Made by a program: the position numbers and the translations under genes. Positions 14,288-29,430 of a stretch of DNA of 64,000 nt are shown one piece after another. Positions within the stretch are counted from its first letter, which is position 1. Every line of letters starts with the position of its first letter. The DNA lies in the IMG/VR virus record IMGVR_UViG_3300034103_000398, positions 7,028 through 71,027 of that record. One strand, written 5' to 3'. The notes beneath the pieces are model-generated. The model searched no databases. It was not told where the DNA came from and was given only the letters and a program-made list of their open reading frames with translations. The stretch is from a virus.

Positions 14288-15574
14288 TTAGTATCTGTAT
14301 GTTTCTGATTTGTAAGGACCTTCTGTCGAAACTCCTATGTACTTAGCTTGTTCATCAGTTAATGTTGTTATTATAGCACCTAATTTATTTAAATGCAACC
14401 TTGCAACCTTCTCATCCAAGTGTTTTGGTAAAACGTACATCTGACCAACTTCATATTTTTCAGAATTTGTCCAGAGTTCAACCTGTGCAATCACTTGGTT
14501 AGTAAAGCTATTGCTCATTACAAAGCTTGGGTGACCAGTAGCACAACCTAAGTTGACCAATCGACCTTTTGCAAGAATGATAATCTTACGACCGTTGCTT
14601 AGGGTAACATGATCTACTTGTGGTTTGATTTCATCCCACTTAGCGTCAGCTAACCCTGCAATGTCAATCTCACTGTCAAAGTGACCAATGTTACATACGA
14701 TAGAATTTTCTTTCATCTGTAGCATATGATCTACAGTGATAACATTTACATTACCTGTAGCAGTTACAAAGATATCTGCTTCTCTACATGCTTGATCCAT
14801 TGACACGACACGAAAGCCTTCCATTGCGGCTTGTAATGCACAGATAGGATCAACCTCTGTAACCCAAACTTGGGCACTCAATGCACGTAATGCTTGCGCT
14901 GATCCTTTACCAACATCACCGAAGCCACAAACGACTGCAACTTTACCTGCAATCATAACGTCGGTTGCACGTTTAATCGAGTCAACTAGACTTTCACGAC
15001 AGCCATATAGGTTGTCAAACTTAGTTTTAGTCACGGAATCGTTTACATTGATAGCACGTAACTTAAATTTACCTTGTTCAATTGCTTCTTTAATACGATG
15101 AATACCCGTTGTTGTTTCTTCACTGACACCAACAATGCCAGCTAACAACTCAGGTTCTTTTTCATGTACATACCATGTCAAGTCATGACCATCGTCAAGC
15201 AACATGTTTGGAGTCCAATTATTAGGTCCACGTACAGTTTGTTCAATGCACCACCAGTATTCATCTTCAGTTTCGCCTTTCCAAGCAAATACAGGAATAC
15301 CTAAATCAGCAATAGCTGCCGCGGCGTGATCTTGTGTACTGTAGATGTTACAGCTAGACCAACGAACTTCGGCGCCAAGGTCAACTAGTGTCTTGACCAA
15401 AACGGCTGTTTGTATCGTCATGTGTAAGCTGCCTGCAATTCTTGCGCCACTGAGTGGTTTCTGTGACAAGTATTCGTCACGAATTGCCATCAATCCGGGC
15501 ATTTCACCCTCAGCAATTTCAATCTCTTTGTGGCCCCATTGAGCCAATGTTATATCTTTTACTTTGTAGTCCAT
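14288..15574 (-). CDS. ahcY: S-adenosylhomocysteine hydrolase
   Basis: [52 protein letters not shown]. Confidence 0.97.
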
Positions 15575-20815: not shown

Positions 20816-21427
20816 TTAAACTGACCCCGGGTCTACTAAGCCCAATTCACTAAACGCCCATTCACGTTCTACACATCTATTGCAAATTCTGCATCTATTC
20901 TCGGGGTATACACAACTATGTGTAATATTAAATAGCCCTTGTTGACCTAACTTTATTACCAAGTCAACAATATGTGCCTTTGTTAAATCCTTTAATGGAT
21001 ACGAGCATCCATATGAGTCTTTCGGTTTAGGGTACACCGGGACATGCAACGTGTGCTCCGACATAGTGTCTATTAGACCTATGAATATCTTATTCACATT
21101 GAACTTTGATATTTCTCGCATGCCTGCTGCCACTTGATTCTCAGTATCCTGCTCAGTGATATCTAAGTATGTTGTAGTTATCGGTTCTAAACCTAATGAC
21201 ATTGTTACATAGTCAATTACAGGCTGTGCGTGTGAACTCGACCCGTCGTTCCTTCTTATAGTAAATGGTACAATTTTGTATCTCTCATTTGTCATAGACA
21301 TTAACAAGTAAAACAACAATGCACTATCTAGTCCTCCGCTGACTAATACACCGATTCTCCTATGCATTGGGGGTAATTTGAAATCAAGTTCTCTTATATC
21401 GTTAGATGGCCCACATAATATTTTCAT
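20816..21427 (-). CDS. QueC-like PP-loop protein
   Basis: SGGLDS plus THSC...CRICNRC.ER..AF. Confidence 0.65.
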   Translation of the reverse strand: MKILCGPSNDIRELDFKLPPMHRRIGVLVSGGLDSALLFYLLMSMTNERYKIVPFTIRRNDGSSSHAQPVIDYVTMSLGLEPITTTYLDITEQDTENQVAAGMREISKFNVNKIFIGLIDTMSEHTLHVPVYPKPKDSYGCSYPLKDLTKAHIVDLVIKLGQQGLFNITHSCVYPENRCRICNRCVEREWAFSELGLVDPGSV

Positions 21428-23971: not shown

Positions 23972-24061
23972 TTAGTAAAGAGACTCCTTGTACACATTGC
24001 ATAAATGTGTCCATGCTTCAATCTCTTGTTTATGTTTTTCTACTGATTGATTCCAACTCAT
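23972..24061 (-). CDS. 29-aa small ORF MSWNQSVEKHKQEIEAWTHLCNVYKESLY
   Basis: AAGGAG RBS; 3' end complementary to own RBS. Confidence 0.5.
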   Translation of the reverse strand: MSWNQSVEKHKQEIEAWTHLCNVYKESLY

Positions 24062-24146
24062 GTGAGTCTCCTTTAAATATGGCGCCGATTTTTGTCATTT
24101 TAACTCAGGCTAACGTACACTCTCTGAGATTAGTTGCAACACAACT

Positions 24147-24219
24147 TGGTAGCCATGGCCAGTTTCGAAATGTCGACCTATCGCTTAAAGCGATTGCTCT
24201 TCCTCTGAGCTACACGGCT
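24147..24219 (-). pseudogene. tRNA-like gene with 5-nt anticodon loop (likely decayed tRNA-Ile)
   Basis: ATCGC-TTTAA-GCGAT; weak T stem; ACCA end. Confidence 0.6.
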
Positions 24220-24227
24220 GTATTGTT

Positions 24228-24302
24228 TGGTGGATGTAAGTAGATTTGAACTACTGACCTGCTCCGTATGAAGGAGATGCACTACCGCTGTGCTATACAT
24301 CC
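24228..24302 (-). tRNA. tRNA with CAT anticodon on a Val-like arm (second copy)
   Basis: D and anticodon arms identical to 16006-16080. Confidence 0.8.
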
Positions 24303-24307
24303 AAAAA

Positions 24308-25009
24308 TTACCAAAAGATGTTTATCTCATTTTCTTTTATGTTCAAATGCATTTGAATTGTAATTCTACATTCATTCTCACTTAAATTAAAAGGTTCAAT
24401 AGAATGTGTAATATCACTTCCCCACTGTGCTAATATTCCAGGCTTATATTCAAGTTTTACATATTCATCGGGTAATACATTTTTGTTAGAAACGGATTCT
24501 TGTGTTGTATATAACAAAGCCCCACCTGAACTAGGAATAGAAATTGGTATAATAACTGATACTATTTCCCCAACATCCGTAATGTTTTGTAAGAAAGAAA
24601 ATTTATCTCTGTGAAAATTATAATAGCCATATGAAGAAGGTTGATTTTCTCTTAATACATATACATGAAATCCAGGATAGTGAGTTTTATCTAAATAAAC
24701 TACCGGTTTATTATATACCGCTTCTATTTTTGTTTTAATCTTATCGTAGTATGTATTAAAGTGCTCTTTCATGATGGGTCTGAATTTCTTCACATTTATC
24801 ATATATAAAATCTGACTACTAGCGTACATACCAGGTGGCAACATTTGTGTTGTGACTGAATTAATACCTAAATCTTTTTCTTTGATATTAGTATTTGTAT
24901 ATTTCCATAGTTTTTTTAAATCAAATACTTTATTCTTTATATCAAGAAGTTCATCTTGAGTAAAAAAGTTATGTTGAATTATTCCTGGTACAATTTTATT
25001 GTATGTCAT
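24308..25009 (-). CDS. 2OG-Fe(II) oxygenase-like protein
   Basis: FHRD, GGAL, HSIEP, RITIQ motifs. Confidence 0.6.
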   Translation of the reverse strand: MTYNKIVPGIIQHNFFTQDELLDIKNKVFDLKKLWKYTNTNIKEKDLGINSVTTQMLPPGMYASSQILYMINVKKFRPIMKEHFNTYYDKIKTKIEAVYNKPVVYLDKTHYPGFHVYVLRENQPSSYGYYNFHRDKFSFLQNITDVGEIVSVIIPISIPSSGGALLYTTQESVSNKNVLPDEYVKLEYKPGILAQWGSDITHSIEPFNLSENECRITIQMHLNIKENEINIFW

Positions 25010-25022
25010 TTTGTATTTAGTT

Positions 25023-25098
25023 TGGGGTGAAGGATGGGACTCGAACCCACAACGACTGGAATCACAATCCAGGACTCTACCATTGAGCTACCGACACC
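25023..25098 (-). tRNA. tRNA-His(GTG)
   Basis: loop TTGTGAT, G-1, CCA. Confidence 0.88.
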
Positions 25099-25104
25099 AT
25101 ATCT

Positions 25105-25182
25105 TGGCGGAAAGCAGAGGAGTCGAACCTCAGAATGCTGGAATCAAAATCCGATGCCTTAGACCAACTTGGCGAACAGGGT
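25105..25182 (-). pseudogene. chimeric tRNA-Gln(TTG) with non-pairing acceptor stem
   Basis: 5' ACCCTGT versus 3' GCTTTCC-GCCA. Confidence 0.65.
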
Positions 25183-25187
25183 ATAAT

Positions 25188-25258
25188 TGGTTGCGGAGGA
25201 GGAATTCGAATCCTCAGGGCCGAGCTTATGAGACTGACCGATCGCCTGAATCCCCGCA
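25188..25258 (-). tRNA. atypical tRNA-Met(CAT), D arm reduced
   Basis: loop CTCATAA, TGCGGGG/CTCCGCA-ACCA. Confidence 0.6.
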
Positions 25259-25265
25259 ATATATT

Positions 25266-25341
25266 TGGTGCCACAAGCTGGACTCGAACCAGCAACACAC
25301 GAATTTTCAGTCCGCTGCTCTACCATTGGAGCTACTGTGGC
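25266..25341 (-). tRNA. tRNA-Phe(GAA)
   Basis: loop CTGAAAA. Confidence 0.9.
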
Positions 25342-25349
25342 AAATTGTT

Positions 25350-25424
25350 TGGTGGAAGCCGAGGGAGTTGAACCCTTCTAGACAAGATTCTTGCAAGGAA
25401 TCCCCGTAGCCCGCTACTGCCCCC
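25350..25424 (-). tRNA. atypical tRNA-Ala(TGC), minimal D loop
   Basis: loop CTTGCAA; GTAGC-GG-GCTAC D hairpin. Confidence 0.7.
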
Positions 25425-25435
25425 ATTGAATTGTT

Positions 25436-25522
25436 TGGTGGAGTGTGAAGGAATCGAACCTCTTGTCGCCACCCTGCTTAATTTGACCATCGGGTTACAG
25501 CCGACGACAGGGAACACACTCC
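25436..25522 (-). tRNA. atypical tRNA-Tyr(GTA), D-armless with long variable region
   Basis: TCGG-CTGTAAC-CCGA; T arm; ACCA. Confidence 0.65.
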
Positions 25523-25531
25523 ATTAAATTT

Positions 25532-25605
25532 TGGTCACCGAGGGCAGAGTCGAACTGCCGCTTCCTGGTTCCAGGCCAGGGATGCTACCGTAACATCTCT
25601 CGGAG
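25532..25605 (-). tRNA. tRNA-Pro(TGG), loop CCTGGAA
   Basis: cloverleaf with C33, CCA. Confidence 0.75.
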
Positions 25606-25612
25606 ATAAACT

Positions 25613-25688
25613 TGGTAGGGGTACTTGGAATCGAACCAAGATTATCGAGTTCAAAGCCCGATGTGATAAGCCATTACACTATACCCCA
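25613..25688 (-). tRNA. tRNA-Gln(TTG)
   Basis: loop CTTTGAA. Confidence 0.88.
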
Positions 25689-25696
25689 ACAAATAC

Positions 25697-25771
25697 TGGC
25701 GATGCGTGGGAGAATCGAACTCCCGTCTTCGGATAGACAATCCGAGATAATGACCATTATATGAACGCACC
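25697..25771 (-). tRNA. tRNA-Asp(GTC), U37
   Basis: loop TTGTCTA. Confidence 0.82.
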
Positions 25772-25777
25772 TAAATT

Positions 25778-25855
25778 TGGCTCCGTGACCTGGGATCGAA
25801 CCAGGCTTATTTCTGATTAACAGTCAGACGCCTACACCTTGCTTGCTCTCACGGA
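25778..25855 (-). tRNA. tRNA-Asn(GTT)
   Basis: loop CTGTTAA. Confidence 0.85.
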
Positions 25856-25913
25856 ATAAAAACATGTCACTACAGCATACCGTCAGAGGGTATGTGTTGT
25901 TCTTCTGTAGTAA

Positions 25914-25984
25914 GCATTCTAAAACATACTAAATTACTTAGGCTGCAATAGGAGCCATTGTTCACAAAGTATGTTTTAGAATGC
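25914..25984 (-). ncRNA. long-stem-closed RNA (family B)
   Basis: perfect 17-bp GCATTCTAAAACATACT/AGTATGTTTTAGAATGC. Confidence 0.55.
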
Positions 25985-26262
25985 CGTGTATTGCTACACG
26001 ACATGATAGGGTTGATACCCTACCCAGTAGTCTTACTAATGTGTTATCGCCACACGTTCATGTATACTGTCCGCCCATTCGATACATTTTACGCTGTATT
26101 CCGGCTCTCGTTGCCTATTCACGTGCTATCATTTAAGATGAAACATCTTACGATAGACTTTTGCACGTTCAATCTTGTTACGGATCAATTGTGCGACTTG
26201 TTCTTTTGACAATGTGTGATTAGTTACCCAATCACTTTTGTCATTAGAAGAAGTTTTTTTAT

Positions 26263-26291
26263 ATTGTATCTTAACTTCCATTTACTGTCAA
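26263..26291 (-). promoter_or_regulatory. sigma70-type promoter at head of tRNA array
   Basis: TTGACA-17-TACAAT. Confidence 0.8.
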
Positions 26292-26319
26292 ATTTCCTTT
26301 TGTTGTTTTTTCACAACAC

Positions 26320-26362
26320 AAAAACAGAAACCCCTGAGACTTTTTAGTTTCCCAGGGGTTTC
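26320..26362 (-). terminator. intrinsic terminator with overlapping antiterminator
   Basis: GAAACCCCTGGGA...TCTCAGGGGTTTC-TGTTTTT; 5' arm also complementary to 26403-26420. Confidence 0.8.
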
Positions 26363-26384
26363 ATAAATTTGTTAGAGTGTTACT

Positions 26385-26561
26385 TTAAGTGTAACTTGCT
26401 CCTTCTATGAAACTCCCCGGAATTCTCGCATCATAATTAAACTCTGACCCGCGAATACTCGGTGTAGACATCTGACCCTCAAAGGCTGCTAATACTGGAG
26501 TCTGAGGTGCTATTGACCAAAGTCCTGTATGTTTCAGCGATTGCGTACAAATGTTTTTCAT
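26385..26561 (-). CDS. putative leader peptide (58 aa, all 20 amino acids)
   Basis: MKNICTQSLKHTGLWSIAPQTPVLAAFEGQMSTPSIRGSEFNYDARIPGSFIEGASYT. Confidence 0.6.
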   Translation of the reverse strand: MKNICTQSLKHTGLWSIAPQTPVLAAFEGQMSTPSIRGSEFNYDARIPGSFIEGASYT

Positions 26562-26638
26562 AGTAAATCTATTTAGTCCTGGTTAAAAATTCTGTCTTTT
26601 AAGGCTCTTTTTTGTGCCTTTTGTTAATTCATGTATGA

Positions 26639-26667
26639 ATTGTAGCAGAAGATCGAATTAGTGTCAA
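26639..26667 (-). promoter_or_regulatory. sigma70-type promoter
   Basis: TTGACA-17-TACAAT. Confidence 0.75.
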
Positions 26668-27068
26668 CACTTTTTTCAACTATCTACCCAACTTCAAAAA
26701 TTCTTTTATGAATCGATTTCTCAATTAATGAGTGAAGTATAACAGAGATAGGAATAGTTGTCAACAACTTTTTTCTATCATCTTGCCCAAACTTCAATAC
26801 AACGATTTCTCGATGCAAGTGTGTAGTATATATGCCTTTTGAATTGTTGTCAAATTTTTTGTTGCCCGGCGGGATCAGACCAATTTGGTCTGTACTGCGG
26901 TGTACCAAAAATATCCTCGTACGGATATCGTAATAGCAAATCAAATACTCGCCTACTGGCCTTTTGTGAATACTTTAATCTACACAGTGGGGAGACCATA
27001 TGTGAGTAGTGTTCATCATAGTAATCTTTCACTACTTCAAAACCTGAAAATTTATTCTCCGATAGTAT

Positions 27069-27560
27069 TTATCTTGGTTGGGCCTTTGATGTTAAATATT
27101 TATTATATTTTACTTCAGCAATCAAAAAAGAGCAGTATGCGTTGCTATCGCTAGTCTCAGATTGTTCCCAATTACTAGTTAATTCGAACCCGGCACCTTT
27201 ATATGTTGACCAGCTGGTTTTTCTAGGGAAACTCCAGACTTGATTGAAATTTTCGAGTTTGGCTTGATTTATGGTTGCAGTCAATAACGATACACCAATA
27301 CCATTGTTTCTATAGTTAGGATCTACCCAAAGACCTCTACTTCGGTATCCATGGTTCATGCAACCATGACCACTGTTAACCCCTACTATTTTATCATCAA
27401 GCATGTATCCAAAAAAAGTAGTAGGGTATTTCATATTTTCTAAATCATACCCGCCCAAGTAGCACATTGCGCTAGTAGGTTCGATTGGACTTATTCGTCC
27501 TGGCCATAACTGATCGGACCATATTTCTGATATAGTAGTCCAGTCTATATGTACTATCAT
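27069..27560 (-). CDS. GNAT acetyltransferase
   Basis: LWVDPNYRNNGIGVSLL motif A, Y...GF. Confidence 0.85.
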   Translation of the reverse strand: MIVHIDWTTISEIWSDQLWPGRISPIEPTSAMCYLGGYDLENMKYPTTFFGYMLDDKIVGVNSGHGCMNHGYRSRGLWVDPNYRNNGIGVSLLTATINQAKLENFNQVWSFPRKTSWSTYKGAGFELTSNWEQSETSDSNAYCSFLIAEVKYNKYLTSKAQPR

Positions 27561-28000
27561 TAATCACCAGACACAAGACCGTTACTATGTTTATCTGTAG
27601 TTTTCTCTACATCTTGAAACATTCGTTTCTCTTGTGCAGTTAGTTTATCTTTATGAGTCTTGCGAGGATTACCACACATCATACAACCGGGTTGACCGCA
27701 ATCCATAGCGTGATGTATTCTATGAATATATACCCAACCTAAGGGACTTCCTCGACCGGCTAATACAGCAAATACAGTGTAAAACCATTTAGCTAAATTG
27801 TCTAACTTAAAACTTTTATGACTATAATAACGGTGTAGCATCATGCTGATACCCAAAATACTATAAGAGTAAAACATGATTATTGCTAATAGAACATATT
27901 GCCAAGTAAACGCCGCGGTTAGGGGGCTTGTCACCAATATTACCAATGACAATAATTGTACTATTCGTAAGGAGTTGGGTGACGATGAAAATATGTTCAT
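27560..28000 (-). CDS. chimera: fatty-acid desaturase N-half fused to homologue of 37573-37878 C-half
   Basis: HRYYSHKSF, GSPLGWVYIHRIHH, then AMDCG..C..CGNPRKTHKDKLTAQEKR. Confidence 0.8.
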   Translation of the reverse strand: MNIFSSSPNSLRIVQLLSLVILVTSPLTAAFTWQYVLLAIIMFYSYSILGISMMLHRYYSHKSFKLDNLAKWFYTVFAVLAGRGSPLGWVYIHRIHHAMDCGQPGCMMCGNPRKTHKDKLTAQEKRMFQDVEKTTDKHSNGLVSGD

Positions 28001-28035
28001 TAGGTATTTATCATAAATACCGTTGGGAACAATAA

Positions 28036-28287
28036 ATGCAAGATGAATTATTTTTTAACACTGAATTTTCACCTACCGGTATATTAGATAAATTATACCA
28101 GGAAGCCAGCGTAGAGGAAAATTATTATTGGAGTCCGGCTCAGCCCCCAGTTATGAGATGTGATGTAAGTGATGAGATAAGAGATTATTTTAAAAGATTA
28201 ATAAATGCCCCATTCAATGATTGCGGGTTATTGAAAACTTACCCAAATACTATCTATCCAATACACAAAGCAATGGTTAATCTATGA
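28036..28287 (+). CDS. hypothetical protein (possibly truncated)
   Basis: 83-aa ORF after ATAAATA. Confidence 0.5.
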   Translation: MQDELFFNTEFSPTGILDKLYQEASVEENYYWSPAQPPVMRCDVSDEIRDYFKRLINAPFNDCGLLKTYPNTIYPIHKAMVNL

Positions 28288-28880
28288 AAGATTGTCAGAT
28301 TGGGACTTCGATTGGAAAACTATTGAGTGGAAAAATGATTGACAGCTTTAGTCACGGACAAATAGGTAGCAAATTATGGTTATGTGAACAATTAGAACCT
28401 CACATTAAAAACAATGCTACTGTTGCTATATTAGGTAGTTGGATAAATGTATTAGGGTTTATGTTGTTGACTAGACAACCCTATAAGTATTCGCATATTA
28501 AGGGCATAGACCTAGACATTGAAGCTGTCAATACTGCTAATCAAATTTGTAATTACTGGTATATTAATGGTATACAACACTCAGTACAAGACAATGCAAA
28601 TACTGTATCACTTCAAGGATTTGATGTTGTGATTAATTGTAGCAGTGAACATATAGAAGGATCAGATTGGTTTGATAACATTAGTTCGGGTACGCTTGTA
28701 TGCATACAGTCTAGTAACGTCACAGATACAACTGAGCCATGGTTAATAAAAAACCCCAGCCCAACGATTGATAGTTTCAAAGAAAAGTATCCACTAAGAG
28801 ATATCAAATTCTGTGACACACTACCAATACGGTATGGTGACTGGGGTTATGATAGATATATGATTATCGGAATCAAATAG
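28284..28880 (+). CDS. SAM-dependent methyltransferase-like protein
   Basis: SKLWL, ILGSW, IDLD, DVVINCSSEH. Confidence 0.6.
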   Translation: MKDCQIGTSIGKLLSGKMIDSFSHGQIGSKLWLCEQLEPHIKNNATVAILGSWINVLGFMLLTRQPYKYSHIKGIDLDIEAVNTANQICNYWYINGIQHSVQDNANTVSLQGFDVVINCSSEHIEGSDWFDNISSGTLVCIQSSNVTDTTEPWLIKNPSPTIDSFKEKYPLRDIKFCDTLPIRYGDWGYDRYMIIGIK

Positions 28881-29430
28881 CAATCTTGCCGATTGCGTTG
28901 ATTGTAGCCGCAATCTTGCCGATGTGATGTAACTGTTGGACAGTCACACCCTCTTTCTTTAGTGTCTCATAGTGACTCTTGACACAGAAGTGACATTTGC
29001 CAATTATACTAGCGGCTAGTGAGTACATCTCAAACTTTACCTTAGTAACTCCACCGTGCGTTGCGTATGCATTCATACGTAAGCCAGCTGGCAATCCCTT
29101 TAATGCAGGATCATCACACATTTCGACAAATGGGTACCAAACATTGTTCTGGCCCATCAATGCGGCCGCTGTCTTTGCGGCTTCACGTGATTTTTCATCT
29201 GTGAATAGAGGACTATTCATTTCGATTTCAAATGCTAAACCTCCGTTGCCAGCTGCAAGTGCTGCCACGTATGCGATTGCATGTGTATCAATTGGATCGA
29301 ATGGACTACGATTGATGACTGCATCAAGATTCAACTTAATATCCTTTGCGTGATCCGGGATACTTTCTTTCACGCTATCTACCCAATTTCCACCGATTGT
29401 GATTGGTGGAACTGACGCTGTTGCTTCCAT
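28873..29430 (-). CDS. ahpD: alkyl hydroperoxide reductase D
   Basis: IPDHAKDIKLNL, NNVWYPF, CHFCVKSH. Confidence 0.9.
   Translation of the reverse strand: MEATASVPPITIGGNWVDSVKESIPDHAKDIKLNLDAVINRSPFDPIDTHAIAYVAALAAGNGGLAFEIEMNSPLFTDEKSREAAKTAAALMGQNNVWYPFVEMCDDPALKGLPAGLRMNAYATHGGVTKVKFEMYSLAASIIGKCHFCVKSHYETLKKEGVTVQQLHHIGKIAATINAIGKIAI

What the first reader, a model, noticed from the sequence alone, without database searches (positions are those of the whole stretch)
26320..26667. All-20-amino-acid leader peptide with terminator/antiterminator upstream of the tRNA array: possible general tRNA-starvation attenuator
A 58-codon ORF (26385-26561), too short for the ORF track, uses all 20 amino acids by codon 45. 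It has about 40 different codons by hand count, including GC-rich ones in an AT-rich genome. Its 3' part (CCGGGGAGTTTCATAGAA, 26403-26420) is complementary to the 5' arm of the downstream terminator (TTTATGAAACCCCTGG). By analogy with amino-acid attenuators, stalling at any earlier codon would free the antiterminator and allow read-through into the tRNA genes, while smooth translation would terminate. Caveats: there is no strong RBS, and a separate promoter (26263-26291) lies downstream of the terminator.
Basis: partly seen in the sequence, partly recalled or inferred. Interest (0 to 1): 0.85.

Follow-up and report, generated by a model that had tools for sequence, protein, structure and literature searches.

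The report
Twenty-amino-acid leader gating phage tRNAs
An uncultured giant lake phage, like about 170 relatives, heads its tRNA gene cluster with a tiny translated gene that evolution keeps stocked with all 20 amino acids and that ends inside a stop/go RNA switch, so slow decoding of any amino acid probably lets transcription run on towards the phage's own tRNA genes.

Summary
A 58-codon ORF (26561-26385, minus strand) lies behind near-consensus sigma-70 promoters. It ends inside a hairpin that competes with an intrinsic terminator, 476 nt upstream of a 49-gene tRNA array. Using all 20 amino acids is not rare for one ORF of this length (8-14%). The comparative data make the case. Of 173 distinct homologous peptides (43-59 aa), 160 have all 20 and 13 lack exactly one. 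Cys, Trp and His occur about once per peptide and are almost never absent. When lost from their usual column they reappear elsewhere. Two relatedness-aware nulls are exceeded. The frame is kept, with dN/dS 0.2-0.5. In 58 of 66 peptides all 20 amino acids lie upstream of the antiterminator strand. That helix shows compensatory changes. A same-strand tRNA follows wherever enough sequence is held. Best reading (0.62): a ribosome-timed attenuator that senses overall decoding capacity. Main caveat: 69 of 81 units have another promoter just after the terminator. There is no direct expression evidence. I found no published account; the nearest published functional analogue is the mycobacterial whiB7 uORF. 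This scan had already noted all-20 leaders of this kind on other genomes, two with look-alike sequence.

The parts
26825..26853 (-). Promoter P1 (TTGACA-17-TATACT)
   Evidence: 11 of 12 consensus positions; first of three tandem promoter units about 90-100 nt apart
26736..26764 (-). Promoter P2 (TTGACA-17-TATACT, TG extension)
   Evidence: of 78 units with enough upstream sequence, 46 have 2-3 promoter-like sites (>=10 of 12) within 480 nt upstream of the leader
26639..26667 (-). Promoter P3 (TTGACA-17-TACAAT), nearest to the leader
   Evidence: a >=9 of 12 site at this place in 74 of 81 related units
26601..26620 (-). 5' UTR hairpin (AAGGC...GCCUU)
   Evidence: seen in folds; relatives have AGUG...CACU and AGUUA...UAACU at this place in the alignment (read by eye, not counted)
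26570..26580 (-). Conserved 5' UTR motif AGGACTAAATA, 12-15 nt before the ATG
   Evidence: exact in 78 of 81 units; role not known (unusual ribosome-binding or standby site is inferred)
26385..26561 (-). Leader ORF, 58 codons plus TAA, all 20 amino acids
   Evidence: coding signature; completeness in 160 of 173 distinct homologues
26404..26422 (-). Antiterminator 5' strand (B), codons 47-53
   Evidence: pairing kept in 86% of cells of 29 long-family sequences against 26-57% for slid controls
26374..26402 (-). Apical part of the antiterminator: GGAG/CUCU helix and hairpin S (26395-26391 with 26383-26379), with stop codon 26387-26385 in its loop
   Evidence: compensatory pairs in hairpin S (columns 50-65 UA15/GU6/AU3, columns 52-63 AU18/UA6)
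26350..26367 (-). Shared strand (C): pairs with B (antiterminator) or, from 26362, with 26339-26327 (terminator)
26312..26362 (-). Intrinsic terminator: 13-bp hairpin 26362-26350 / 26339-26327, then U tract 26326-26312
   Evidence: -21.5 kcal/mol; at least 6 T in the 10 nt after the stem in 71 of 81 units; missed by the scan, whose loop limit is 8 nt (loop here 10)
26263..26291 (-). Promoter P4 (TTGACA-17-TACAAT) directly after the terminator
   Evidence: a site at this place in 69 of 81 units
26129..26281 (-). ORF2, 50 aa, whose ATG lies between the -35 and -10 of P4
   Evidence: phrog_20536 at E 7e-5; relatives just after the hairpin in 41 of 81 units
25856..26128 (-). Conserved structured RNA between ORF2 and the first tRNA
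   Evidence: fold z-score -5.74; blastn relatives in 52 of 81 units; no Rfam family
25778..25855 (-). tRNA-Asn(GTT), first gene of the array

Best explanation
This is a ribosome-timed transcription attenuator that gauges overall decoding capacity. Host RNA polymerase starts at up to three tandem strong promoters. A ribosome translates the leader, whose first 38-47 codons hold at least one codon for each of the 20 amino acids, including an internal Met. If the ribosome runs through without delay, it occupies strand B and the stop-codon hairpin while polymerase makes strand C and the terminator's 3' arm. C then pairs into the terminator and transcription stops at 26326-26312. If decoding of any codon is slow, B is free when C emerges. 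This would happen when a tRNA is scarce, uncharged or cleaved, or when translation is shut down. The more stable, earlier-made B-S-C hairpin then forms, the terminator cannot, and polymerase reads on. It passes through ORF2 and a structured RNA into the tRNA array, which encodes tRNAs for all 20 amino acids. This adds to the basal transcription from P4. The result is negative feedback on the phage's tRNA supply. Shown by comparison: the coding signature, selection for completeness, the conserved alternative helices, the conserved geometry and the synteny. Inferred: translation, termination, the timing mechanism and the direction of the response.
For: Coding signature. Across 72 distinct ORFs the other two frames are never open. 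In a codon-blind alignment, 29 of 31 distinct gap runs are multiples of 3. Third-position changes are about 2-fold commoner and dN/dS is 0.19-0.52. The terminator-anchored DNA search, which is blind to the ORF, gave 85 unique units; 81 carry the ORF and the other 4 are chance matches without hairpin or tRNA.
Completeness. 160 of 173 distinct peptides have all 20 amino acids and the rest lack exactly one. Expectation for 44-59 residues is 2.4-11.7%.
Zero counts against Poisson expectation: Cys 4 vs 63, Trp 0 vs 59, His 0 vs 60, Asp 2 vs 43.5, Val 5 vs 44, internal Met 1 vs 40.5.
Relocation. Cys is found elsewhere in 14 of 18 peptides lacking the usual column, against 4 of 155 that have it. The figures for Trp are 20 of 20 against 12 of 153, and for His 10 of 10 against 10 of 163.
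Nulls. The tree simulation gave a mean of 36.6 complete tips of 173, maximum 82 in 60 runs. The pair-redraw null expected 40.4 of 78 against 71 observed, reached in 0 of 20,000 draws.
Placement and codons. All 20 amino acids lie upstream of B in 58 of 66 peptides. Codon diversity exceeds expectation in 72 of 72 leaders.
Switch. The antiterminator folds at -28.2 against -21.5 kcal/mol for the terminator. The nascent RNA up to C folds into the antiterminator. The full transcript is bistable, -84.2 against -82.2. Compensatory pairs appear. The CCCGGGGA motif is read in two frames (ARGTE* and GPGTR*). The stop codon lies 20-31 nt before CCCCTGGG in all 81 units.
Synteny. A same-strand tRNA begins 279-1479 nt after the hairpin in 64 of 81 units. 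The other 17 hold at most 1150 nt downstream.
Other. Of the 12 units without P4, 7 have a weakened U tract, against 3 of 69 with P4. AlphaFold2 gives no fold: pLDDT 58.6, pTM 0.12. Published precedent: in the whiB7 uORF a single Trp codon suffices for sensing (PMC10274678, section 7).
Against: A promoter-like site follows the terminator in 69 of 81 units, so the array need not depend on read-through. There is no canonical Shine-Dalgarno. There is no direct evidence of translation, termination or regulation. The metatranscriptome data are low-depth contigs that may be DNA. The last amino acids to appear sit only 1-4 codons before B: only 6 of 66 peptides are complete 4 codons earlier. A ribosome stalled there would partly cover B. 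Several peptide and nucleotide blocks (KHTGLW, PSIRG) are more conserved than the model needs. Ten of 81 units have a weak U tract. A trp-like anti-antiterminator (start-codon region pairing with B) is not evident in the short subfamily. Relatedness inflates all raw counts. The terminator arms are invariant, so they give no covariation. The structure tested was derived from one member, which favours it over the slid controls.
Confidence: 0.62

Rival explanations
1. This is an ordinary small early gene. The 58-aa product has a function of its own. The hairpins are its terminator and an mRNA 3' structure. P4 alone drives the tRNA array, and nothing is regulated by read-through.
For: It has its own promoters and terminator, and P4 follows in 69 of 81 units. 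dN/dS is below 1 and some peptide blocks are conserved. 116 protein clusters are called 'hypothetical protein' in public sets.
Against: No known protein function requires one of each amino acid with relocation of Cys, Trp and His. No column is invariant across 70 peptides. No fold is predicted. There is no Pfam or PHROG family. Selection keeps a helix that competes with the gene's own terminator, across a frame change. ORF2's start lies upstream of the expected P4 start site. Loss of P4 goes with loss of the U tract.
Confidence: 0.13
2. The switch is real, but its output is not mainly the tRNAs. Read-through would serve to express ORF2 and/or the structured RNA, or the terminated about 310-nt leader RNA (or its peptide) would act in trans. 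I recall this for the Sinorhizobium trp attenuator RNA and peptide; I saw only the abstracts listed.
For: ORF2's ATG sits inside P4, so full-length ORF2 needs read-through. ORF2 occurs in 41 of 81 units and the structured RNA in 52 of 81. The terminator loop sequence is conserved in the loci found by protein similarity, not only in those found by the DNA pattern. P4 can supply the tRNAs.
Against: ORF2 is absent from 40 of 81 units, whereas a tRNA array follows in every unit with enough sequence. An array serving all 20 amino acids matches a 20-amino-acid leader. Read-through transcripts continue into the array unless another terminator intervenes; none was looked for systematically.
Confidence: 0.15
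3. The switch is set by something other than the translating ribosome, such as a protein, a small ligand or an uncharged tRNA as in T-box leaders. The ORF would then be secondary.
For: The fold is stable: z -3.3 for 26632-26310. The 5' UTR motif and mid-ORF nucleotide blocks are highly conserved. The Shine-Dalgarno is weak.
Against: No Rfam family, T-box included, matches at E up to 10. The coding signature and the completeness selection are unexplained by an untranslated RNA. The stop codon's position relative to the switch is fixed.
Confidence: 0.06

Closest known systems
whiB7 (wblC) uORF transcription attenuator of mycobacteria (Poulton et al. 2023 preprint, PMC10274678; I read the abstract and section 7)
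   Same: A translated upstream ORF with mixed composition. Stalling at codons for many different amino acids favours an antiterminator and read-through. The uORF's composition decides which starvations are sensed. The M. smegmatis uORF has 19 of 20 amino acids, and its single Trp codon suffices for sensing.
   Different: There is no sequence relation. The whiB7 uORF varies in which amino acids it contains (M. tuberculosis lacks several) and is specifically enriched in Ala. It controls a transcription factor, not tRNA genes. Here completeness itself is under selection (160 of 173), the element is viral, and it heads a tRNA array.
Leader-peptide attenuators of enterobacterial amino-acid operons (trpL, hisL, pheL, leuL; multivalent thrL and ilvGMEDA leader). 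Textbook knowledge, recalled; the pheL paper PMC3082878 was seen only as a search listing and abstract
   Same: A short leader ORF and an intrinsic terminator. A mutually exclusive antiterminator shares the terminator's 5' arm. Ribosome position decides the fold, and the logic is negative feedback.
   Different: Those leaders carry runs of one to three cognate amino acids and control biosynthetic enzymes without an intervening promoter. They use a 1:2 anti-antiterminator, so that no translation means termination. This one samples all 20 amino acids mostly once. Its target is tRNA genes. Its default fold appears to be read-through. A promoter usually follows the terminator. No Rfam leader family matched.
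Inducible tRNA array (trn operon) of Anabaena sp. PCC 7120 (Santamaria-Gomez et al. 2021, PMC8421152, abstract read; TrcR repressor paper PMC10272220, listing and start of abstract only)
   Same: A long supernumerary tRNA array is induced when translation is impaired.
   Different: By those abstracts it is a cellular, megaplasmid-borne array controlled by a transcriptional repressor. No leader peptide or attenuator is mentioned in what I read.
Phage tRNAs as counter-defence to tRNA-cleaving immunity (van den Berg et al. 2023, PMC10264068; PARIS, PMC11464382; listings and starts of abstracts only)
   Same: They give a reason why a phage would need to sense and answer the loss of any tRNA species.
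   Different: Those papers concern what phage tRNAs do. In what I saw they do not address how their expression is controlled.

Membership tests
Ribosome-mediated (leader-peptide) transcription attenuators | Short translated ORF in the 5' leader | tested here: met
   The frame is kept in 72 of 72 distinct ORFs, the other frames are never open, and 29 of 31 gap runs are multiples of 3. dN/dS is 0.19-0.52. Translation itself is not shown.
Ribosome-mediated (leader-peptide) transcription attenuators | Intrinsic terminator (GC-rich hairpin plus U tract) after the leader ORF | tested here: met
   13-bp hairpin of -21.5 kcal/mol plus U tract in the window. At least 6 T of 10 in 71 of 81 units; 10 units have a weak tract. 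Termination itself is not shown.
Ribosome-mediated (leader-peptide) transcription attenuators | Mutually exclusive antiterminator that uses the terminator's 5' arm | tested here: met
   Helix B:C is paired in 86-89% of cells against 26-59% in slid controls, with compensatory pairs. The nascent RNA folds into it.
Ribosome-mediated (leader-peptide) transcription attenuators | The ORF overlaps the switch, so that ribosome position selects the fold | tested here: met
   B is codons 47-53. The stop codon lies in the loop of hairpin S (long subfamily) or within B (short subfamily). The stop-to-CCCCTGGG distance is 20-31 nt in 81 of 81 units.
Ribosome-mediated (leader-peptide) transcription attenuators | Regulatory codons match the product of the controlled genes | tested here: met
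   All 20 amino acids are in the leader (160 of 173), and the array's tRNAs serve all 20 amino acids. This is a new form of the feature: no runs of one amino acid.
Ribosome-mediated (leader-peptide) transcription attenuators | Controlled genes lie downstream without a promoter of their own | tested here: not met
   A P4-like site lies within 160 nt after the hairpin in 69 of 81 units (5 of them weak, 9 of 12 matches). The feature is met only in the 12 units without P4.
Ribosome-mediated (leader-peptide) transcription attenuators | Anti-antiterminator (1:2 pairing) giving termination without translation | tested here: inconclusive
   The window's MFE pairs the start-codon region CUAUGAAA with B. 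By eye I found no matching complementarity in the short subfamily; this was not counted.
T-box leader (tRNA-sensing riboswitch) | Match to the T-box covariance model (specifier loop, T-box sequence) | tested here: not met
   Scanning 24000-29000 at E up to 10 gave only chance-level snoRNA matches in 26278-26642.
Rfam amino-acid operon leaders (His, Trp, Thr, Leu, Phe leaders) | Match to any of these covariance models | tested here: not met
   No such match.
whiB7 uORF attenuator | Homology or synteny with whiB7 | not tested
   No whiB7 sequence was fetched. The likeness is functional only.

The most novel reading that the evidence does not exclude
The leader is a pan-tRNA damage alarm. It carries one codon for every amino acid and needs only a long stall at any one of them. 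It could therefore detect the near-total loss of any single tRNA species. Such loss is caused by host anticodon nucleases (PrrC-, PARIS-, retron- or Schlafen-type defences) or by the phage's own degradation of host tRNAs. The answer would be a surge of transcription from three tandem promoters into ORF2, a structured RNA and an array of replacement tRNAs and tRNA-like RNAs. That would be a sensor-effector circuit for counter-defence, built entirely from a leader peptide.
Probability: 0.3. Interest if true: 0.92.

Novelty: new variant of a known kind. Interest (0 to 1): 0.8.

Why it matters
If the model holds, this would be a natural gauge of whole-cell decoding capacity. It is a leader peptide selected not for a sequence but for containing every amino acid. 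It would also be the first described control circuit for a phage tRNA array. It would show that phages regulate, and do not merely carry, their tRNAs. It ties in with current work on tRNA-cleaving immunity. The element is compact (about 320 nt) and driven by a sigma-70 promoter. It could serve as a generic reporter for depletion of any aminoacyl-tRNA. The 20-of-20 constraint is also an unusual, cleanly testable kind of selection on a coding sequence. The model can be tested directly with 20 drop-out reactions in a reconstituted transcription-translation system.

Tried and rejected
Known RNA family: the Rfam scan of 24000-29000 at E up to 10 gave nothing credible in 26300-26700.

Pure non-coding RNA: this was my first suspicion, because GC reaches 0.46 at 26400-26549 against about 0.30 in the flanks and the fold has z -3.3. 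I rejected it on the coding signature.

'All 20 amino acids' as a surprise in the single sequence: rejected, since it occurs in 8-14% of controls.

Cultured relatives: none in the phage collection by DNA or by tblastn. The GNAT neighbour gave no related viral loci.

Protein families: no Pfam or PHROG match for the leader. AlphaFold2 gave no fold.

Expression: RNA-library contigs of four runs lie on parts of 25700-26803 at depth 2-5. One 151-nt contig spans 26216-26362, across the terminator and P4. Contigs cannot show ends or strand, and DNA carry-over is possible, so I draw nothing from this.

The promoter scan's total (7 sites against 5.9 +/- 2.4 in shuffles) is not above chance. I rely on the four 11-of-12 matches on one strand and on their conservation.

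A joint MAFFT alignment of both subfamilies (A2) was not in structural register, so I did not use it for pair counts and aligned the subfamilies separately.

The four pattern hits without an ORF (L131, L053, L110, L061) are unrelated chance matches.

Literature: searches found no account of a leader peptide or attenuator before tRNA genes. These cover open-access full text only. Supplements were closed.

Full report
Setting. The window is bases 7028-71027 of a 71,027-base IMG/VR virus record estimated to be 20% complete. Relatives lie on contigs of up to about 367 kb. Runs that hold the stretch are mainly lake-water metagenomes. All 49 tRNA genes found by ARAGORN are on the minus strand, from 25855 down to 11353, and serve all 20 amino acids. 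The finding lies just upstream of the first of them. Everything below reads on the minus strand.

Anatomy. Four promoter-like sites match 11 of 12 consensus positions with 17-nt spacers. They lie at 26853-26825, 26764-26736, 26667-26639 and 26291-26263. The first three are tandem units feeding one leader. After the third come a small 5' hairpin and the motif AGGACTAAATA (26580-26570), then the ORF 26561-26385.

ORF nucleotides 26422-26404 (strand B) pair with 26367-26350 (strand C). Between them lie a GGAG/CUCU helix and a 5-bp hairpin S, whose loop holds the stop codon. Together they form one long hairpin of -28.2 kcal/mol. C also supplies the 5' arm of a 13-bp hairpin (26362-26350 with 26339-26327, -21.5 kcal/mol), which is followed by a U tract. 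The two folds exclude each other.

The nascent RNA up to the end of C folds into B:C. The complete transcript is almost bistable: -84.2 kcal/mol with the terminator against -82.2 with the antiterminator.

Is 'all 20' remarkable? Not in one sequence. It holds for 7.8% of 934 57-residue windows of this phage's long ORFs, for 14.3% of 5000 stop-free shuffles, and for 4 of 58 small ORFs of the window. It holds for 2.4% of windows at 44 residues.

Relatives. The peptide found 24 IMG/VR loci. An alignment of ten peptides found 28 loci, 18 metagenome loci and 116 protein clusters. A degenerate pattern for the terminator core, which does not look at the ORF, matched 99 stretches. Pooled with the loci fetched earlier and the window, matches to that pattern gave 85 unique units. 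Of these, 81 carry the ORF. The other 4 are unrelated chance matches with no 3' arm and no tRNA. There are two subfamilies, of 51-59 and 43-48 codons.

The ORF is coding. Across 72 distinct ORF sequences the other two frames are never open. In a codon-blind alignment, 29 of 31 distinct gap runs are multiples of three. Third-position differences are about twice as common as first- or second-position ones. dN/dS is 0.19-0.52 among six clade representatives.

Selection for completeness. I dropped 2 fragments and 5 clusters whose gene call starts at an internal Met, and trimmed 5 N-terminal over-extensions. That left 173 distinct peptides. Of these, 160 contain all 20 amino acids and each of the other 13 lacks exactly one: Cys 4, Val 5, Asp 2, Phe 1, Tyr 1.

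The rare residues are held at about one per peptide and are almost never absent:
- Cys: mean 1.01, 4 zeros, where a Poisson model expects 63.
- Trp: mean 1.07, 0 zeros against 59.
- His: mean 1.06, 0 zeros against 60.
- Asp: 2 zeros against 43.5.
- Val: 5 zeros against 44.
- Internal Met, not counting the start: 1 zero against 40.5.

When the usual column loses the residue, another column has it. Cys is found elsewhere in 14 of 18 such peptides, against 4 of 155 that keep the usual column. At least five alternative positions are used. For Trp the figures are 20 of 20 against 12 of 153. For His they are 10 of 10 against 10 of 163. These Fisher tests are not corrected for relatedness.

I therefore ran two further nulls.
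- Tree simulation. Evolution was simulated down a FastTree tree, with per-site rates taken from parsimony, BLOSUM-weighted replacements and the real gap patterns. It left a mean of 36.6 of 173 tips complete, with a maximum of 82 in 60 runs. The root sequence would make 133 tips complete.
- Pair redraw. I took 78 disjoint pairs at 50-80% identity, each starting from a complete member, and redrew the changed residues. The expectation was 40.4 complete partners. I observed 71, a count reached in 0 of 20,000 draws.

No column is invariant across 70 diverse peptides. The peptide has no Pfam or PHROG family. AlphaFold2 with that alignment gives no secondary structure, with pLDDT 58.6 and pTM 0.12.

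Placement and codons. In 58 of 66 distinct peptides all 20 amino acids lie upstream of the first nucleotide of B, within the first 38-47 codons. The other 8 have 19 there. Four codons further upstream only 6 are complete, so the last-arriving residues sit close to B. Given the amino-acid sequence and this phage's codon usage, the number of distinct codons is above expectation in 72 of 72 leaders. The mean excess is 3.7 codons, and the excess is individually significant in 47%. The caveats are relatedness, RNA constraints, and the use of the window's codon usage for every locus.

The RNA switch is conserved.
- Long subfamily (29 sequences). The antiterminator is paired in 86.2% of cells, against 26-57% when partners are slid. 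One pair in B:C switches U-A (24) to C-G (4). Two pairs in hairpin S show double changes.
- Short subfamily (43 sequences). It is paired in 88.6% of cells against 30-59% for slid partners. Two adjacent pairs in B:C alternate A-U and G-C: 12/12, with 11 G-U, and 21/19.
- Frame change. The motif CCCGGGGA of strand B is read as ..ARGTE* in some members and as ..GPGTR* in others. Conservation there is therefore at the RNA level.
- Geometry. The stop codon ends 20-31 nt before CCCCTGGG in all 81 units, although ORF length varies from 43 to 59 codons.
- Limits. The terminator arms are invariant, so they offer no covariation. The tested structure was derived from one member, which favours it over the slid controls.

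Context. A same-strand tRNA gene begins 279-1479 nt after the hairpin in 64 of 81 units. The other 17 hold at most 1150 nt of downstream sequence. No tRNA lies upstream of the leader in the 22 loci scanned whole. A promoter-like site precedes the leader in 74 of 81 units. Two or three such sites occur in 46 of the 78 units with enough upstream sequence.

A P4-like site follows the terminator in 69 of 81 units, 5 of them marginal. Of the 12 units without P4, 7 have lost the U tract (TTTCCAATTA...), against 3 of 69 with P4. This fits the view that the hairpin really terminates and that the array needs input either from P4 or from read-through.

In the window the ATG of ORF2 (26281) lies between the -35 and -10 hexamers of P4. 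ORF2 has relatives directly after the hairpin in 41 of 81 units and matches phrog_20536 at E 7e-5. I infer that full-length ORF2 can only come from read-through transcripts. A conserved, strongly folding RNA (26128-25856; z -5.74; relatives in 52 of 81 units) then precedes tRNA-Asn.

Mechanism (inferred). Without a ribosome on B or S, the earlier-made and more stable B-S-C hairpin forms, and polymerase reads through. A ribosome that arrives at B, S and the stop codon in step with polymerase holds B and C apart. C then pairs with the terminator's 3' arm and transcription ends. Any long pause upstream of B gives read-through.

Single codons make a weak gauge of mild starvation. They suffice for near-total loss of one tRNA or amino acid. 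A single Trp codon was shown to suffice in the M. smegmatis whiB7 uORF (PMC10274678, section 7). With three promoters upstream and one downstream of the switch, the expected output is modulation above a basal level.

Comparison and novelty. This works like a leader-peptide attenuator and meets five of that class's seven listed features. It fails 'no promoter between switch and target' in most members. The anti-antiterminator is unsettled. No Rfam leader or T-box model matches.

The nearest published functional analogue I found is the whiB7 uORF, a broad translation-stress sensor. It is Ala-enriched, variable in content, and controls a transcription factor. An inducible tRNA array is known in Anabaena, but by the abstracts I saw it is under repressor control. 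Six full-text searches found no leader peptide or attenuator described before tRNA genes.

Earlier notes of this scan describe all-20 leaders before phage tRNA arrays on other genomes, two of them with look-alike sequence. Those are unpublished AI notes. I reached the same reading from my own calls before seeing them. From them I took only the whiB7 and Anabaena leads, which I then read myself.

Verdict. It is a new variant of a known kind.

Noticed in passing
window 26129-26291 (minus strand): The ATG of ORF2 (50 aa, phrog_20536 at E 7e-5) lies between the -35 and -10 hexamers of promoter P4. P4 transcripts should therefore lack its start codon. Relatives of ORF2 begin 20-127 nt after the hairpin in 40 of the 41 units that have one (461 nt in the other, L125).
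   Followed up: partly
window 25856-26128 (minus strand): A conserved structured RNA lies between ORF2 and the first tRNA. Its fold z-score is -5.74. Relatives occur in 52 of 81 units. There is no Rfam match.
   Followed up: partly
window 26302-26317 (minus strand): A small hairpin (GUUGU-GAAAAA-ACAAC) lies between the U tract and P4. Some relatives have GUUGC...GCAAC at the same place, which suggests a conserved second stem. This was not counted.
   Followed up: no
window 26570-26580 (minus strand): The 5' UTR motif AGGACTAAATA is exact in 78 of 81 units and lies 12-15 nt from the ATG. CTAAATA-like strings also precede the ATGs of ORFs at 21427 and 25009 inside the array. This may be an unusual translation-initiation signal.
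   Followed up: partly
window 24147-24219 (minus strand): ARAGORN calls a tRNA with anticodon TTA (it would read the stop codon UAA). Rfam tRNA score is 42.5 bits.
   Followed up: no
window 25439-25523 and 25116-25173 (minus strand): Sub-threshold tRNA-like matches that ARAGORN did not call: tRNA-Sec model at 27.1 bits (gathering 47) and tRNA model at 22.4 bits (gathering 29).
   Followed up: no
window 14288-15574 and 24308-25009 (minus strand): Protein genes sit inside the tRNA array: an S-adenosylhomocysteine hydrolase (Pfam E 2e-130) and a weak 2OG-oxygenase/halogenase-like ORF (WelO5, E 4e-4, below cut-off).
   Followed up: no
loci L018-L021, L119, L125, L142: In units lacking P4, the hairpin is followed by TTTCCA(A/G)TTA instead of a U tract. 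In L018-L021 and L119 it runs straight into the conserved structured RNA. These look like variants in which the leader promoter drives the array constitutively.
   Followed up: partly
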